A DNA stretch of 64,000 nt from Methanobacteriota archaeon (GCA_023411115.1 JAEYPF010000020.1:10052-74051); one strand, 5' to 3'. Counted from the stretch's first letter, positions 38,627 through 42,033 are shown. A program made the numbers and translations. Notes: a model not told the origin generated them from the letters alone.

Positions 38627-39949
38627 TTAACCGCAGCAGCTTCCCCCACCTATACTAAGACCTAAATTATTTAAAAATGCCATGTAACCCTTATCAATAA
38701 GTTTTGTATGATCTCTAAGACCATAAACTTCTATTTTCCCAGAAGAAAGCAAGTTTACGAAATTTGAAGGATCATAAGATTTTAATATTTCTTCAATGTC
38801 TTTTTCATCAATAACAAATAATAAGTCTGCATTAGAGCTTTCTAATTCATTTAGCGGCTTTATGCTTATATTAAAACCATCATTTCCTTTTTCTAAAAAT
38901 ACTAACCTTTCTTTGTTTTCTGTCATGACGATTACTATAGCTGAACCCTTAACTAGGTCATCAAACATATTGGAATTTTGTTTGGCCCAATTATCCCATA
39001 ATTCAACTTTAAACTTCTTAGCTTGTTTTTCTTGTAATTTAGCATTCATTTTGTCAAATTTATTTTTAACATGCTCATATCCTTTTACTTCAAATGGACA
39101 GTCTTCTATACAGTAAGTACAACCTTGACTGCAACCTATACAATTTTTTTGTACAAGTTCAATTTCGCTACCACAACAGGTTTCTTTTTCTATTAAAGCC
39201 TTTTCAGGGCAAGCTTTAACGCATTTACCGCATTTATCACAGTATTCTGGTATCCATGAATGCTCATTACCCTCTTTTATTGGCAAGTTGGCTATGCTGA
39301 CAAATATTGCTGAAATTTTTACTCTAGGGCCAAGTTCTGGAGTTATGAGAAGGCCATTTTTCCCTATATATCCTAAACCAGCTTTTTGTGCAAGTGGAGA
39401 GAAACCTACAAGACCACCATAAGGATGGGCAATTTCAGTTGCAAAACCATTCTTTCTAAGATAATCAGAGAGCTTAGTGGTTAAAATGCCCAATTTTACA
39501 TAAGCAGTATCATTAAGATCTTTTGCTTCATCTCCAGGAGCTGTTTCAAGGATTTCTTTAGCCATTTCCATAGTTAAAACAATAGTAAATGGATATTGAA
39601 CGAATTTATCCTTAATTAATATGTCAGGTGTGAGTTGAGTGTATCCTATACTTTTAATACCTAATGAATGAGCATAATCTTCAAATTCTTTGATAAAATT
39701 ATCTTCAGCTATGAATTTAGGCTTATCTGGATTTTCTACACGTGATAAATCAGGATAATCAACAGGTCCACAACCACAACCTCCATTATCCTGTGCTTCT
39801 GTATTTTCTGTTCCGCAGCCACATCCTGCATCTTCTTCAGGTGCTTCTACAGTTTCTTCACCACATCCACAACCAGTATTTTCTTTTAACTTTTCTTCAG
39901 TTTCTTTATCCTGTTTGATGTCTTCACATCCACATTTATTATCTTCCAT
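38627..39949 (-). CDS. RdhA/QueG-superfamily Fe-S protein with an N-terminal CGC-repeat acidic region and a C-terminal SCP2-like domain
   Basis: 440 aa from ATG 39949 (RBS ggagg). The longer ORF in the track would overlap the upstream gene. The N-terminus has 4 CGC motifs (KCGCE, GCGCG x3). The core has [42 protein letters not shown] and [16 protein letters not shown]. The tail is SCP2-like ([11 protein letters not shown]...SSGKIEVYG) and ends in GGGSCCG. Confidence 0.7.
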
Positions 39950-39971
39950 AAAATTTCCTCCAAATATTGTT

Positions 39972-40628
39972 CTATTTAAGCGCCTCTTCAAAAGCATCTC
40001 TGTGAAAACCGGATGCCATTTCTTTTTTACAATCTTCATCTGAAAACAGCCTCAATTTAGCAGCCCTACAAGGATAATGTTGTAATTTAAGACCAGCTTC
40101 CATAGGAATATTTTCTAAATCATCGCTACCAAAATATTTATCCGAGATGTAATCAACCACAAATGTTGTCGAACCACAGGGAGAAGACCGGACAACATCA
40201 ATAATAGCAATTTTACCATCTTCAAGTGTTATGTCTACTTTAGGCTTCCCTATTTTAGATGTAAACTCATCATATACTTCGTTACCGTTTTCTTCTAATT
40301 CACACATGATATATGGGCAAGTTACGTTTTCATATCTTTCTAACTGGTTTTTGAATCCTTCACCTCTCCATGCAGCGACAATTATGTAATCTACATCTTT
40401 GTTAACCATATCAACAATGTCTAAGGTAAGATCAGGGTGTTGAGTATAGGTTATTAAGATGTTTGCTTGTTTTATCTTTGTTAATGCATCTGGGGGAATG
40501 TCTATTTCATCCATAAACATTGATGTAGGTTGTTCAAGTTCAACGAACTCTGTATTGAATTCCTTTTTTATGTTTTCAAATGCTCTTTCACCGTATGGTC
40601 CATCTGTAGCTATTACAACGTTTAACAT
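39972..40628 (-). CDS. Hypothetical protein (possibly DUF166/COG1810-like)
   Basis: 218 aa from ATG 40628 (RBS ggag), which avoids overlap with ars[19 protein letters not shown] ... PCGST ... HYPCRA. The family assignment is tentative. Confidence 0.35.
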
Positions 40629-40641
40629 TTCTTCAACTCCA

Positions 40642-41139
40642 TTATTTACATGAGAATTCTTTATCAATTGGCCTGCAGCATCCTTCCATCTCTTCTAAAT
40701 TACAGCACCTGTCCTCGGGTAACATATATGAATAGTATAAATCTTCTATCCAGAATTTTAATTCATCCCTAACTTTTTTGAATAATTCTAATTTCTCTTC
40801 TTCAGTACCTTCAAATGCTGCTGGATCTTCAAATGGTTGCTTGAAGTATTTTTTACCTCCGGCAAAGAAAGGACATGCGTTATATTGATTTCCACAAACA
40901 GTTATAACATACTGGAATTCTTGGCCTTCAAATTCCTTTAAACTTTTAGATCTATGATTAGAGATGTTTATCCCAATTTCTTCCATAGCTTTTATTGCTA
41001 AAGAGTCTACTTTTTGGGGGTCGCTCCCTGCACTGTAAACATCAAAATTATCTCCATATAAATCCCTGAACAGCCCTTCTGCCATTTGAGATCGGGCTGC
41101 ATTATGTATGCACATGAATAAAACTCTTTCTTTTGCCAT
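40642..41139 (-). CDS. arsC: Arsenate reductase, thioredoxin-coupled LMW-PTP type, with a Cys-rich C-terminal extension
   Basis: 165 aa with the P-loop CIHNAARS and the Cys82/Cys89 equivalent VCGNQYNAC. The extra tail is RCCNLEEMEGCCRPIDKEFSCK. Confidence 0.85.
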   Translation of the reverse strand: MAKERVLFMCIHNAARSQMAEGLFRDLYGDNFDVYSAGSDPQKVDSLAIKAMEEIGINISNHRSKSLKEFEGQEFQYVITVCGNQYNACPFFAGGKKYFKQPFEDPAAFEGTEEEKLELFKKVRDELKFWIEDLYYSYMLPEDRCCNLEEMEGCCRPIDKEFSCK

Positions 41140-41286
41140 TTAGATCACCTTTATATTTTAATTAAATAGATGTTTTATCCCGATTTGATCAGTTGATCAA
41201 GCCTATACAATGTTAAATGTTGCCTGAGGAATGGAGAGGTAGCAACGCGACGAACTTTGTATTTTCCCACCCACAAACATCTGTAT

Positions 41287-41673
41287 TTAATCTATAAGCT
41301 CACTAATTTTCTTTTTCATTACTAAAACACACTTTTCCCCATTTTCATCAAGTCTGACGGGATCAGTAGGCTTTAAATTTTCCAAGTCTAGTTCTTCCTG
41401 GGCATTAATAATTTTTGCAACTTTAACGCCTTTTTGTCCAAGTATTTTGTCAACACAAGACCCTTCGCACCCATTGATTGCGATAATAGGATATTTTCTA
41501 ATTAACTCTCTGAATCCTTCTCTATCTGCAGAGGTTGCACCCATACAGATAGATATAATGTCATCACGTTCTTTGACTGTGTCCGTACTGGCTGCCCTTG
41601 TAATTAGACCGTAAGGGCTCATTCCACTACATGGAGCTAAAGCATATTTTTTCTCATTTGCCATAATTATCAC
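41287..41673 (-). CDS. DGC-domain-like putative metal-binding protein
   Basis: 128 aa with APCSGMS ... ISICMGA ... INGCEGSCV. This Cys pattern resembles that of DGC-domain zinc-binding proteins. Confidence 0.5.
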   Translation of the reverse strand: MIIMANEKKYALAPCSGMSPYGLITRAASTDTVKERDDIISICMGATSADREGFRELIRKYPIIAINGCEGSCVDKILGQKGVKVAKIINAQEELDLENLKPTDPVRLDENGEKCVLVMKKKISELID

Positions 41674-41676
41674 CGT

Positions 41677-42033
41677 TTAGAGTATTACTATTAATTCTTT
41701 AACTAAATCAGCAATTTTTGGGTCTGTAAGACTGTAATAAATCCATATTCCTTCTTTACGTCCTTTAATGAAACCTAAATTTTTAAGAATGTTTAAATGG
41801 TGGGATACACTTGATTGTGGCTTATCTAAGGCATATATTATCTCACAGGCGCACAATTCGCCTTCAGATAATAAATACAATATTTTGAGCCTGGTTGCGT
41901 CTGATAAAGCTTTAAGTTTACCTGAGTATTCTTCAAAATGATCATCATGGGGTAATGATTCCATAAGTTCGTTTAATCTTTGTATTTGCCCTTCATTTGG
42001 TCTGTTTCCATCTAAAATGTCACAAGTTTTCAT
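41677..42033 (-). CDS. arsR: ArsR/SmtB-family metalloid-responsive repressor
   Basis: 118 aa with a wHTH ([27 protein letters not shown]...[10 protein letters not shown]). The ELCAC sits at the position of the As(III)-binding ELCVC. Confidence 0.85.

What the first reader, a model, noticed from the sequence alone, without database searches (positions are those of the whole stretch)
38627..42033. ars-type operon with no arsenite pump whose cargo is a thiol-repeat RdhA/QueG-family Fe-S protein
Five minus-strand genes lie head to tail with gaps of 3, 147, 13 and 22 nt. They encode ArsR (ELCAC site), a DGC-like Cys protein, a Trx-type ArsC, a 218-aa unknown and a 440-aa RdhA/QueG-superfamily protein. 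No ACR3/ArsB, ArsA, ArsD or ArsM-like gene exists anywhere in the 64 kb, so the usual end point of an ars operon (efflux) is missing. Vicinal or CxC thiols, the chemistry used to bind trivalent arsenicals, occur in three of the five products: ArsR has CAC, the ArsC tail has CC..CC..C, and the last protein has 4x CGC plus a terminal CC. The RdhA/QueG superfamily does cobalamin- and [4Fe-4S]-dependent reductive chemistry (dehalogenation, epoxide reduction). The known organoarsenical-transforming ars enzymes, ArsI and ArsH, need O2. Inference: this could be an anaerobic metalloid or organometalloid-transforming module, for example reduction or C-As cleavage of organoarsenicals, or handling of another thiophilic xenobiotic. 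I have not seen such a module described.
Basis: partly seen in the sequence, partly recalled or inferred. Interest (0 to 1): 0.75.

Follow-up and report, generated by a model that had tools for sequence, protein, structure and literature searches.

The report
Arsenic-operon branch of reductive-dehalogenase-like enzymes
A methanogen arsenic-resistance gene cluster carries an undescribed, cysteine-armed relative of vitamin-B12-dependent reductive dehalogenases that is next to arsenic genes in about 26 related species and fused to the arsenic-methylating enzyme ArsM in some, which makes it a testable candidate for unexplained anaerobic arsenic chemistry in methanogens.

Summary
The five minus-strand genes are real: ArsR, DGC, thioredoxin-type ArsC, DUF166 and a 440-aa RdhA/QueG-superfamily Fe-S protein ("RdhL").

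The "no pump" headline is only local.
- In the closest relative (L004) an ACR3 gene sits exactly between DUF166 and RdhL.
- ACR3 lies within 10 kb in 12 of 26 related species loci.

The core idea holds and is strengthened.
- Of 26 close homologue loci (Methanobacteriaceae), 25 have an ArsR nearby. DGC and ArsC occur in 14 each, ArsM in 12 and DUF166 in 10.
- Among 48 distant family members, one has an ArsR nearby and none has other ars genes.
- Some homologues are fused to a bona fide ArsM (330-343 bits, cut-off 263). Others are fused to ArsR, a ferredoxin domain or a flavin reductase.

RdhL keeps both 4Fe-4S motifs. It also keeps the residues aligned with the Tyr/Lys positions of NpRdhA, which I recall as the catalytic pair. 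Extra cysteines (an N-terminal (CGCG)n tract, a CC loop, C273 and a C-terminal CC after an SCP2-fold domain) mark the ars-linked clade.

Best reading: an ArsR-controlled terminal reductase acting on thiol-bound (methyl)arsenicals. The substrate and reaction are not established. The family fails the curated RdhA and QueG thresholds, and I found no literature description. I classify it as a new variant of a known kind. Interest 0.68.

The parts
42151..42161 (-). Archaeal TATA-like element (AAGTTTATATA) upstream of arsR
   Evidence: Read directly from the sequence. Not tested functionally.
42104..42135 (.). 16+16 nt palindrome just downstream of the TATA element; candidate ArsR operator
   Evidence: Inverted repeat I11, 81% complementary with no spacer. 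The role is inferred from its position.
41677..42033 (-). arsR (118 aa) with an ELCAC As(III)-type CxC site
   Evidence: HTH_5 70.5 bits; NF033788 93.9 bits against a cut-off of 55.
41287..41673 (-). DGC-domain Cys-rich protein (128 aa)
   Evidence: PF08859 62 bits. A DGC gene lies near the RdhL homologue in 14 of 26 loci, and within 500 bp in 9. No solved relative by sequence.
40642..41139 (-). LMWP/thioredoxin-type arsC (165 aa) with a Cys-rich C-terminal tail (CC..CC..C)
   Evidence: TIGR02691 113.7 bits, below the cut-off of 174.3. Cys10, Cys82 and Cys89 align to 1JL3.
39972..40628 (-). DUF166 protein (218 aa) with five invariant Cys
   Evidence: PF02593 207 bits. Invariant C104, C109, C151, C187 and C200. 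AF2 model pLDDT 86. No significant PDB fold match. Usually paired with ArsC in relatives.
39740..39949 (-). RdhL residues 1-70: acidic, disordered tract with 4x CGC
   Evidence: Sequence. pLDDT below 50. Repeat number varies between homologues, median 4 CxC.
39050..39739 (-). RdhL residues 71-300: RdhA/QueG-type core with two 4Fe-4S motifs, Y150, K211, the C258-C259 loop and C273
   Evidence: PDB profile and alignments to PceA and NpRdhA. Foldseek. Conservation across 136 family members. Clade-specific Cys.
38627..39049 (-). RdhL residues 301-440 plus the stop codon: SCP2-fold domain ending in GGGSCCG
   Evidence: pLDDT about 80-89. Foldseek matches to SCP2 (4jgx, 1ikt, 3cnu). 66 of 69 homologous domains end in CC. 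The domain is N-terminal in P0118.
37883..38455 (-). DUF2115 gene (190 aa); possible sixth member of the cluster
   Evidence: PF09888 159 bits. Near RdhL homologues in 7 of 26 loci. It has its own TATA-like element, so co-transcription is uncertain.
42433..42804 (+). Divergent second arsR-family regulator (123 aa)
   Evidence: HTH_5 28.4 bits; NF033788 53.5 bits, just under the cut-off of 55. Syntenic in L004 at 72% identity.
42794..43252 (+). arsN2-type GNAT acetyltransferase; its ORF overlaps arsR2 by 11 nt
   Evidence: NF040501 147.7 bits against a cut-off of 125.
43737..44663 (+). Paralogue of the RdhL core (308 aa) with no Cys tract, no CC loop and no SCP2 domain; sits next to PadR regulators
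   Evidence: 51% identity to the core. TIGR02486 59.2 bits. Keeps K211 and C273 but has PG at positions 258-259.

Best explanation
The 440-aa protein (RdhL) belongs to an undescribed, arsenic-dedicated branch of the cobalamin/[4Fe-4S] RdhA-QueG reductase superfamily, found in Methanobacteriaceae.

Proposed mechanism:
1. RdhL is transcribed from an ArsR-repressed promoter together with ArsC, DGC and DUF166.
2. It works as a cytoplasmic terminal reductase. Electrons enter from a ferredoxin-type or flavin (CoA-disulfide-reductase-like) donor. They pass through two 4Fe-4S clusters to a corrinoid.
3. A conserved Tyr150/Lys211 pair supplies the proton.
4. The substrate is an arsenic species held as a thiolate on the enzyme's own flexible cysteine arms: the N-terminal (CGCG)n tract, the C-terminal CC tail on an SCP2-fold domain, and the clade-specific C258-C259/C273 near the second Fe-S motif. 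This resembles the way MerA's N- and C-terminal cysteine pairs feed Hg(II) to its active site (a comparison from memory).

Because the gene is so often adjacent or fused to ArsM, the substrate is most likely an ArsM substrate or product. My preferred reaction is a two-electron reductive cleavage of an As-X bond (X = O or S) in trivalent (methyl)arsenicals, giving volatile As-H arsines. Reduction of pentavalent methylarsenicals and reductive C-As cleavage are close alternatives.

Shown here: the gene order, the superfamily homology, conservation of the aligned residues, the ars linkage and the fusions.
Inferred: cobalamin binding, the electron path, arsenic binding by the cysteine arms and the reaction itself.

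The absence of ACR3 from this window is a lineage-specific loss or rearrangement, not a design feature.
For: Gene neighbourhood and fusions:
- All 26 close homologue loci (one per GTDB species) have at least one ars-type neighbour. ArsR occurs in 25, DGC in 14, ArsC in 14, ArsM in 12, ACR3 in 12 and DUF166 in 10. Among 48 distant family loci, ArsR occurs in 1 and the others in none.
- ArsM-RdhL single-ORF fusions occur in L006, L015 and L016, and in proteins from independent sources. Their N-terminal domain scores 330-343 bits on NF008823 (cut-off 263). A standalone ArsM sits 22-46 nt upstream in L005, L007, L009 and L031, and L005's ArsM scores 338.7 bits.
- ArsR-HTH fusions to the core, with the CxC site kept (P0130, P0169).
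- Electron-input fusions and neighbours: an N-terminal 2x[4Fe-4S] ferredoxin domain (P0059, P0083, L019); Pyr_redox_2 fusions (P0261, P0263); and a CoA-disulfide-reductase-like neighbour in 6 loci.

Enzyme features:
- Superfamily placement: PceA E = 1.6e-18, NpRdhA 1.9e-12, QueG 2.9e-9, supported by Foldseek.
- In the alignments Y150 aligns with PceA Tyr246 and NpRdhA Tyr426. K211 aligns with PceA Arg305 and NpRdhA Lys488. A K488Q variant structure appears in the PDB list. That these are the catalytic residues is my recollection.
- Across 136 family members Tyr is 93% conserved, position 211 is Arg or Lys in 132, and the eight cluster cysteines are 98-100% conserved.
- K211, C273 and a Cys-rich pre-core tract track ars linkage. 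The CC loop is added in Methanobacterium. The non-ars-linked relatives have Arg211 and none of the extra cysteines.
- The N-terminus (MEDNKCGC...) shows no twin-arginine motif, which points to a cytoplasmic protein.

Context from papers:
- Methanogens, including Methanobacteriales, form AsH3 and methylarsines (PMC6882981, citing McBride & Wolfe 1971, Michalke 2000 and Thomas 2011).
- Methanobacterium and Methanobrevibacter MAGs correlate with unexplained anaerobic DMA demethylation (PMC12478174).
Against: - No experiment or transcript data were available, and the substrate is unknown.
- Cobalamin binding is inferred from homology alone. The AF2 core model is poor (overall pLDDT 59), so the pocket could not be examined.
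- The protein fails the curated RdhA and QueG thresholds, and Pfam sees only the Fer4 motifs.
- A fusion to ArsM fits equally well with a role as a reductant supplier for ArsM. NCBIfam already lists ArsM fused to AhpD and DUF2284 domains.
- Formation of AsH3 from As(III) is thermodynamically very demanding (my estimate, not computed here).
- ArsR/SmtB regulators can sense things other than As(III).
- Half of the loci, including this window, have no ArsM nearby.
Confidence: 0.5

Rival explanations
1. RdhL is an Fe-S-dependent thiol/disulfide reductase rather than an arsenical-transforming enzyme. It takes low-potential electrons and re-reduces the catalytic disulfides of Trx-type ArsC and of ArsM through its CxC/CC arms. 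In these methanogens it would stand in for an NADPH-thioredoxin system, in the manner of ferredoxin:thioredoxin reductase or HdrB.
For: - Both ArsC and ArsM need their disulfides reduced after each turnover (established knowledge of the families).
- RdhL is adjacent or fused to ArsM, or sits near ArsC.
- NCBIfam already recognises ArsM fused to other redox domains, AhpD and DUF2284.
- The clade-specific C258-C259-G260 and C273 lie within or next to the second Fe-S motif, which could form a cluster-adjacent redox-active dithiol.
- The ArsC here has its own Cys-rich tail.
Against: - The residues aligned with the RdhA Tyr/Lys(Arg) pair and the Gly-rich GxGxxGxxGLLI.P..GP segment stay invariant. 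Pure electron or thiol relay would not need them.
- Electron-input modules (ferredoxin domain, flavin reductase) are fused upstream of the core, as in self-sufficient RdhA. That suggests the core is the terminal catalyst.
- Minimal ArsR-RdhL modules in Methanobrevibacter have no ArsC or ArsM nearby (L023, L024, L028).
Confidence: 0.22
2. RdhL is an anaerobic C-As bond-cleaving enzyme, a reductive demethylase or dearylase. Co(I) attacks the carbon and releases As(III), by analogy with reductive dehalogenation. It would be the oxygen-independent counterpart of ArsI.
For: - An RdhA-type active site is retained.
- Methanobacterium, Methanothermobacter and Methanobrevibacter MAGs correlate with DMA demethylation in anoxic paddy soil, and no enzyme for this is known (PMC12478174; preprint 10.64898/2026.08.27.747368 uses methylotrophic methyltransferases as proxies and did not detect arsI).
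- These hydrogenotrophs are not known for methylotrophic methanogenesis (my knowledge).
Against: - A fusion or tight operon with ArsM, which makes C-As bonds, would create a futile cycle.
- There is no direct evidence for this reaction.
Confidence: 0.13
3. The gene is a general xenobiotic or redox-stress reductase that merely shares a stress island with ars genes. Its substrate is not an arsenical.
For: - The window region is rich in PadR and GyrI-like regulators.
- The paralogue at 43737-44663 is PadR-linked, not ArsR-linked.
- The wider family (128 clusters at E <= 1e-30) is mostly not ars-linked.
Against: - ArsR adjacency in 25 of 26 species-level loci, across varied gene orders.
- Covalent fusions to ArsM and ArsR.
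- Cysteine features that track ars linkage.
Confidence: 0.08

Closest known systems
Reductive dehalogenases (RdhA: PceA of Sulfurospirillum multivorans; catabolic NpRdhA)
   Same: - Best sequence and fold matches.
- Two 4Fe-4S motifs.
- The conserved Tyr and basic residue align with PceA Y246/R305 and NpRdhA Y426/K488.
- Like NpRdhA it looks cytoplasmic, and some relatives have fused or adjacent reductase modules.
   Different: - Only about 20% identity.
- TIGR02486 scores 56.8 bits against a cut-off of 160.
- The core is much shorter (about 230 aa) and lacks the N-terminal half of PceA.
- No twin-arginine motif is visible in the N-terminus, and no small membrane-protein ORF lies beside the gene (I ran no RdhB-specific search).
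- It adds a (CGCG)n tract, a CC loop and an SCP2 domain with a CC tail.
- Its context is arsenic genes, not organohalide genes.
Epoxyqueuosine reductase QueG
   Same: - Same superfamily (5d08, E = 2.9e-9).
- A cytoplasmic cobalamin/2x[4Fe-4S] enzyme that removes an oxygen reductively.
- JGI names many homologues 'QueG'.
   Different: - TIGR00276 scores 45 bits against a cut-off of 200.
- Pfam reported no DUF1730 or HEAT-type domain for it.
- Archaea use archaeosine rather than queuosine (established knowledge).
- ars context.
Canonical ars operons (arsR-arsC-acr3/arsB, with or without arsD, arsA, arsM)
   Same: - ArsR with a CxC site, a Trx-type ArsC and an ArsN2 neighbour are present here.
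- Relatives add ACR3, ArsD/ArsA and ArsM in the same clusters.
   Different: - No pump within this window.
- It contains three conserved components not usually listed among ars genes: RdhL, DGC and DUF166, with DUF2115 as a possible fourth.
Mercuric reductase MerA (functional analogy only)
   Same: The layout is similar: a flexible N-terminal thiol metal-binding module, a redox core and a C-terminal vicinal Cys pair. In MerA that pair hands the thiophilic element to the active site, and the product leaves as a volatile species. This comparison is from memory of MerA.
   Different: - Unrelated fold and cofactors (FAD/NADPH against Fe-S/corrinoid).
- A volatile product for RdhL is hypothetical.
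ArsM fusion proteins already catalogued (ArsM/AhpD and ArsM/DUF2284 selenoproteins in NCBIfam)
   Same: An ArsM N-terminal domain is joined to a Cys/Sec-rich redox domain (listed).
   Different: The partner domain here is an RdhA/QueG-type core. No NCBIfam model covers that architecture; the fusion proteins hit only the ArsM and sub-threshold RDH models.

Membership tests
Reductive dehalogenase RdhA (TIGR02486 / respiratory type) | Score at or above the curated family threshold | tested here: not met
   56.8 bits against a cut-off of 160.35. Pfam finds only Fer4 motifs.
Reductive dehalogenase RdhA (TIGR02486 / respiratory type) | Two Fe-S cluster motifs C-terminal to the corrinoid-binding core | tested here: met
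   C237/240/243/247 and C270/277/280/284 are 98-100% conserved in 136 family members.
Reductive dehalogenase RdhA (TIGR02486 / respiratory type) | Active-site Tyr with an Arg/Lys partner | tested here: met
   Y150 and K211 align with PceA Y246/R305 and NpRdhA Y426/K488 in the HMMER alignments. Tyr is 93% conserved and the basic residue is Arg or Lys in 132 of 136. Which residues are catalytic is recalled from the literature; a K488Q entry appears.
Reductive dehalogenase RdhA (TIGR02486 / respiratory type) | Twin-arginine signal peptide and an adjacent RdhB membrane anchor | tested here: not met
   The N-terminus is MEDNKCGC..., with no RR motif. No small membrane-protein ORF flanks the gene. 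I ran no RdhB-specific search.
Reductive dehalogenase RdhA (TIGR02486 / respiratory type) | Bound corrinoid cofactor and dehalogenating activity | not testable with these tools
   Needs UV-vis/EPR spectroscopy, cofactor extraction and enzyme assays.
Epoxyqueuosine reductase QueG (TIGR00276) | Score at or above the curated threshold, and QueG-specific flanking domains | tested here: not met
   45.1 bits against a cut-off of 200, matching only residues 185-257. Pfam reported no DUF1730 or HEAT domain.
Epoxyqueuosine reductase QueG (TIGR00276) | The organism makes queuosine-modified tRNA | not tested
   Archaea use archaeosine (established knowledge). tgt/que genes were not examined here.
ars operon | ArsR/SmtB repressor with an As(III)-type CxC site at the head of the operon | tested here: met
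   NF033788 93.9 bits against a cut-off of 55; ELCAC motif.
ars operon | Arsenate reductase | tested here: inconclusive
   The catalytic triad C10/C82/C89 is conserved against 1JL3. The TIGR02691 score of 113.7 bits is below the cut-off of 174.3.
ars operon | Arsenite efflux pump (ACR3 or ArsB) | tested here: not met
   None in the 64 kb. ArsB was excluded only by ORF size and TM count. ACR3 is present in relatives: TIGR00832 at 372-449 bits in L001 and L005, and inside the operon in L004.
SCP2 sterol-carrier fold (C-terminal domain) | SCP2 alpha/beta fold | tested here: met
   Foldseek hits to 4jgx, 1ikt, 8af3 and 3cnu, with target-normalised TM 0.38-0.55 and probability 0.98-1.0, on a domain with pLDDT about 80-89. 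There is no Pfam SCP2 hit, so this is fold-level only.
DUF166 (PF02593) | Pfam gathering threshold | tested here: met
   207.4 bits against a cut-off of 24.4. The DfsP equivalog NF041372 scores only 58 bits against a cut-off of 200.

The most novel reading that the evidence does not exclude
RdhL is the missing enzyme behind a decades-old observation: it is an arsenite-inducible, corrinoid-dependent 'arsenical reductase' of Methanobacteriales. Either it converts thiol-bound As(III), MAs(III) and DMAs(III) into volatile arsines (AsH3, CH3AsH2, (CH3)2AsH), or it reductively cleaves C-As bonds. That would give the first oxygen-independent enzyme for arsenic volatilisation by hydride formation, or for arsenic demethylation. 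It would also be the first RdhA-superfamily member whose substrate is a metalloid rather than a carbon centre.
Probability: 0.3. Interest if true: 0.9.

Novelty: new variant of a known kind. Interest (0 to 1): 0.68.

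Why it matters
- **Open questions it addresses.** Anaerobic arsenic transformations by methanogens were reported from 1971 onward: dimethylarsine and arsine formation, and DMA demethylation in paddy soils, which affects rice straighthead disease and grain arsenic. 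They still lack dedicated enzymes. Current work uses mcrA or methylotrophic methyltransferases as proxies (PMC12478174; preprint 10.64898/2026.08.27.747368) or invokes side reactions of methylcobalamin (PMC6205960).
- **What this finding offers.** RdhL is a B12-type reductase that is ArsR-linked in about 26 Methanobacteriaceae species and fused to ArsM in some. It is a concrete, clonable candidate and a possible marker gene for metagenomic surveys.
- **Wider significance.** If confirmed, it would extend the RdhA/QueG superfamily to metalloid chemistry. It would also add RdhL, DGC and DUF166 to the catalogue of ars genes for strict anaerobes.

Tried and rejected
- **RdhL structure.** AF2 with a 25-sequence alignment gave a poor core (overall pLDDT 59), so I could not analyse the active-site pocket.
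- **DUF166.** The model was good, but Foldseek against the PDB found no significant match. Sequence searches of the PDB for DUF166 and DGC found nothing. Both remain unassigned.
- **Literature.** Eight searches found no paper describing an ars-linked RdhA/QueG-like protein. The 'DUF166' hits were all DUF1661 prefix matches and irrelevant.
- **Pump and ars-gene remnants.** tblastn at E <= 5 found no ACR3, ArsD, ArsA or ArsM relics in the window.
- **Candidates rejected.** I considered the 230-aa methyltransferase at 17598-18290 as ArsM and rejected it. It has only generic methyltransferase hits and no tblastn match to ArsM. I considered the ATPase at 4098-4871 as ArsA and rejected it, because only its P-loop matches.
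- **GNAT fusion.** The GNAT domain fused in P0190 matches ArsN2 at only 31 bits against a cut-off of 125, so I did not use it as evidence.
- **Short repeats.** The 12-nt inverted pair CATCTGTATTTA (41278-41289 / 42206-42217) is about what chance gives in AT-rich DNA (my rough estimate is about 0.5 expected).
- **Other.** Rfam found nothing in 36000-46000. The Cys tract is not a DNA-level tandem repeat. The first DUF166 homologue search timed out and was repeated.

Full report
**1. Observation**

The window is a low-GC (about 0.29-0.38 in 2-kb windows) Methanobacterium-like chromosome segment. Homologues of the large protein are almost all named Methanobacterium. By eye, 22166-29775 is a nifHDKENX cluster; I did not verify this.

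Profile searches give:
- ArsR: HTH_5, and NF033788 above its cut-off, with an ELCAC site.
- A DGC-domain protein (PF08859).
- An LMWP-type ArsC. Its Cys10/Cys82/Cys89 triad aligns to B. subtilis ArsC 1JL3, although it scores below the TIGR02691 cut-off.
- DUF166 (PF02593, 207 bits).
- A 440-aa protein in which Pfam sees only 4Fe-4S motifs. NCBIfam gives sub-threshold matches to RDH (56.8 bits, cut-off 160) and QueG (45 bits, cut-off 200).

The 4x CGC motifs and the terminal SCCG are present.

**2.

- A second ArsR-family gene (42433-42804) runs divergently upstream. Its ORF overlaps an ArsN2 acetyltransferase, which scores 147.7 bits against a cut-off of 125.
- After a PadR gene comes a 308-aa paralogue of the RdhA-like core (43737-44663; 51% identity). 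It lacks the cysteine tract and the C-terminal domain.
- Downstream on the same strand is a DUF2115 gene (37883-38455). It recurs near homologues in 7 of 26 loci but has its own TATA-like element.
- Upstream of arsR, a TATA-like AAGTTTATATA is followed directly by a 16+16-nt palindrome (42104-42135). This layout would suit a repressor operator. That is an inference.

**3. The pump claim**

No ORF in the 64 kb has the size and TM count of ACR3 or ArsB. Pfam on the ambiguous candidates and tblastn with ACR3, ArsD, ArsA and ArsM taken from related loci found nothing. So the local statement is true.

It is not a property of the module, however.
- I fetched 80 loci from species-representative genomes. 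Proteins of about 360-400 aa with 9-11 predicted TM helices often follow an ArsR next to the homologue.
- They belong to the SBF family. Two of them were confirmed as ACR3 by TIGR00832 at 372-449 bits against a cut-off of 282.8.
- L002 has ArsR-ACR3-ArsD-ArsA beside ArsR-DUF169-RdhL.
- In the closest relative, L004, the window's arsC-DUF166 block and its RdhL gene align at 84-87% DNA identity. Ten nucleotides in the window correspond to 1158 nt in L004, and that stretch encodes ACR3. The frameshifts in that ACR3 resemble the frameshifts that also split DUF166 and RdhL in this MAG, so I attribute them to assembly error.
- L004 in turn lacks DGC.

The operon content is therefore fluid, and the pump-less state here is a lineage-specific loss or rearrangement.

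**4. Association with ars genes**

I compared ORFs in each locus with the window's proteins and with ArsM, ACR3, ArsD and ArsA references. All 26 close loci with a callable core are Methanobacteriaceae, including Methanobrevibacter, with one locus per GTDB species.

| Neighbour within 10 kb | Close loci (n = 26) | Distant family loci (n = 48) |
|---|---|---|
| ArsR | 25 (24 within 3 kb) | 1 |
| DGC | 14 | 0 |
| ArsC | 14 | 0 |
| ArsM | 12 | 0 |
| ACR3 | 12 | 0 |
| DUF166 | 10 | 0 |

- The minimal modules in Methanobrevibacter are ArsR-RdhL, ArsR-DGC-RdhL and ArsR-RdhL-DGC.
- DUF166 is usually paired with ArsC rather than with RdhL.

**5. Fusions**

- Several homologues from independent sources carry an N-terminal domain with the motifs GLGCGNP, VLDLGSGGGID, SNCVINL and CVAGA. 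It scores 330-343 bits on the arsenite methyltransferase model NF008823, cut-off 263.
- The fusions are single ORFs in L006, L015 and L016. Elsewhere a standalone ArsM ends 22-46 nt upstream.
- In the fusions the (CGCG)n tract forms the linker between ArsM and the core.
- Other architectures are:
  - an N-terminal 2x[4Fe-4S] ferredoxin domain (P0059, P0083, L019);
  - the SCP2 domain moved to the N-terminus (P0118);
  - an ArsR HTH domain fused to the core with the CxC site kept (P0130, P0169);
  - Pyr_redox_2 fusions in more distant members (P0261, P0263).
- A CoA-disulfide-reductase-like flavoprotein is a divergent neighbour of ArsM-RdhL in 6 loci.

Electron-input modules feeding the core suggest that the core is the terminal catalyst. 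This resembles self-sufficient NpRdhA.

**6. The enzyme**

- A profile of 25 homologues hits PceA (E = 1.6e-18 and 7.5e-17), NpRdhA (1.9e-12) and QueG (2.9e-9). Foldseek with the weak model agrees.
- In the printed alignments, Y150 aligns with PceA Tyr246 and NpRdhA Tyr426. K211 aligns with PceA Arg305 and NpRdhA Lys488. That these are the catalytic residues is my recollection; a K488Q variant entry appears.
- An exhaustive search found 2356 relatives, 128 of them at E <= 1e-30. Most are proteins of about 320 aa.
- In 136 of these relatives Tyr is 93% conserved, position 211 is Arg (113) or Lys (19), and the eight cluster cysteines are 98-100% conserved.
- K211, C273 and the Cys-rich pre-core tract are seen in the ars-linked loci with intact ORFs. 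The ExCCG loop (C258-C259) is added in Methanobacterium.
- The ten non-ars-linked relatives in the alignment lack C273, the CC loop and the Cys-rich tract. Nine of them have Arg211.
- Across 93 homologues the pre-core tract has a median of 4 CxC motifs. 66 of 69 C-terminal domains end in CC.
- The C-terminal domain is confidently modelled (pLDDT about 80-89) and has an SCP2 fold.
- The N-terminus has no twin-arginine motif, and no small membrane-protein ORF lies beside the gene.

**7. DUF166 and DGC**

- DUF166 gave a good model (pLDDT 86, pTM 0.84) but no significant PDB match (best E = 7e-3, TM <= 0.35).
- It has five invariant cysteines.
- NCBIfam knows a selenoprotein subfamily of DUF166, DfsP (also listed in PMC13188914). 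I take this as a hint of a redox-active or metal-binding Cys site.
- DGC has no solved relative by sequence.
- The functions of both remain open. My inference is that they help with thiol, metalloid or redox handling around ArsC and RdhL.

**8. Mechanism**

Best-supported reading (confidence about 0.5): RdhL is an ArsR-controlled, cytoplasmic, terminal corrinoid/Fe-S reductase that acts on arsenic species presented as thiolates by its own cysteine arms, and it is functionally coupled to ArsM.

Rough split among candidate reactions:
- As-X to As-H reduction giving volatile arsines: about 0.2.
- Reduction of pentavalent methylarsenicals: about 0.15.
- Reductive C-As cleavage: about 0.13-0.15.

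Arguments for the arsine option:
- It follows the R-X to R-H logic of the RdhA family.
- It explains why a pump can be lost.
- It explains the coupling to ArsM, because MAs(III) and DMAs(III) are toxic and non-volatile until further methylated or hydrided.
- It matches reports that methanogens of this order emit AsH3 and methylarsines (PMC6882981, citing McBride & Wolfe 1971, Michalke 2000 and Thomas 2011).

Arguments for the other readings:
- The C-As cleavage option fits the correlation of Methanobacterium and Methanobrevibacter MAGs with DMA demethylation (PMC12478174). It sits awkwardly with the ArsM fusions.
- The main rival (about 0.22) is a ferredoxin-driven disulfide reductase that serves ArsC and ArsM.

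None of these can be separated without experiments.

**9. Comparison, novelty and verdict**

- The protein is a member of the RdhA/QueG superfamily. It fails the curated thresholds and lacks the family-specific features of both RdhA and QueG.
- NCBI names its homologues '4Fe-4S binding protein', and JGI names them 'QueG'.
- Eight literature searches found no description of an ars-linked member.
- I classify it as a new variant of a known kind: a new functional branch of a known enzyme superfamily, recruited into a known operon type.
The central suggestion of an anaerobic metalloid-transforming module is strengthened.
- Interest 0.68.

Noticed in passing
window 22166-29775 (+): An apparent nitrogenase cluster: nifH, two PII-like genes, nifD, nifK, nifE, nifN and a nifX-like gene. 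I recognised it by eye from the N-terminal sequences in the ORF list and did not run profile searches.
   Followed up: no
window 42433-43252 (+): A second ArsR-family regulator whose ORF overlaps an ArsN2-type acetyltransferase by 11 nt, divergent from the main operon. ArsN2 scores above its curated cut-off. The pair is syntenic in L004.
   Followed up: partly
window 43272-46998: A cluster rich in stress regulators. It holds PadR (43272-43589), the RdhL-core paralogue (43737-44663), another PadR (44806-45354), a GyrI-like protein (45374-45841) and a DUF3795 + GyrI-like protein with 17 Cys (45817-46998). A third PadR lies at 37158-37697.
   Followed up: partly
L005 14451-16226; also L002, L007, L012, L019, L021: Directly after ACR3 in six related ars clusters come TusD/DsrE-, TusC/DsrF- and TusB/DsrH-like genes and a PF04060 'putative Fe-S cluster' protein. 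All score below the curated cut-offs. This may be a sulfur-relay or thioarsenic link.
   Followed up: partly
L001 6710-7468 and L002 9091-9852: A DUF169 (PF02596) gene lies beside an ArsR gene close to the RdhL homologue in two loci. In L002 it sits between ArsR and RdhL. Its function is unknown.
   Followed up: no
window 36041-36997 (-): A 318-aa protein with a signal-like N-terminus and about 5 TM helices has no Pfam or NCBIfam hit. Next to it are a DUF2769 protein with 10 Cys (35720-36022) and a small multidrug-export-family protein (35172-35609).
   Followed up: partly
window 1494-1925 (+): A 143-aa ORF with 12 cysteines and one predicted TM segment. I did not examine it.
   Followed up: no
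window 13934-14410 and 14831-15280 (-): Two paralogous ORFs that look like receiver domains share the motif VEILLVEDNPADARLV. The surrounding region has the lowest GC in the window, 0.285-0.296.
   Followed up: no
L044, L046, L051, L052, L055, L057, L058, L061-L064, L070, L074, L076, L077: In many gut Clostridia, Opitutales and Victivallales MAGs, distant members of the same core family occur as tandem triplets of about 360, 300 and 311 aa, with no ars neighbours. This is a separate, uncharacterised system.
   Followed up: no
window 41278-41289 and 42206-42217: A perfect 12-nt inverted pair, CATCTGTATTTA / TAAATACAGATG, brackets arsR-DGC. By my rough estimate this is about what chance gives in AT-rich DNA.
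   Followed up: partly
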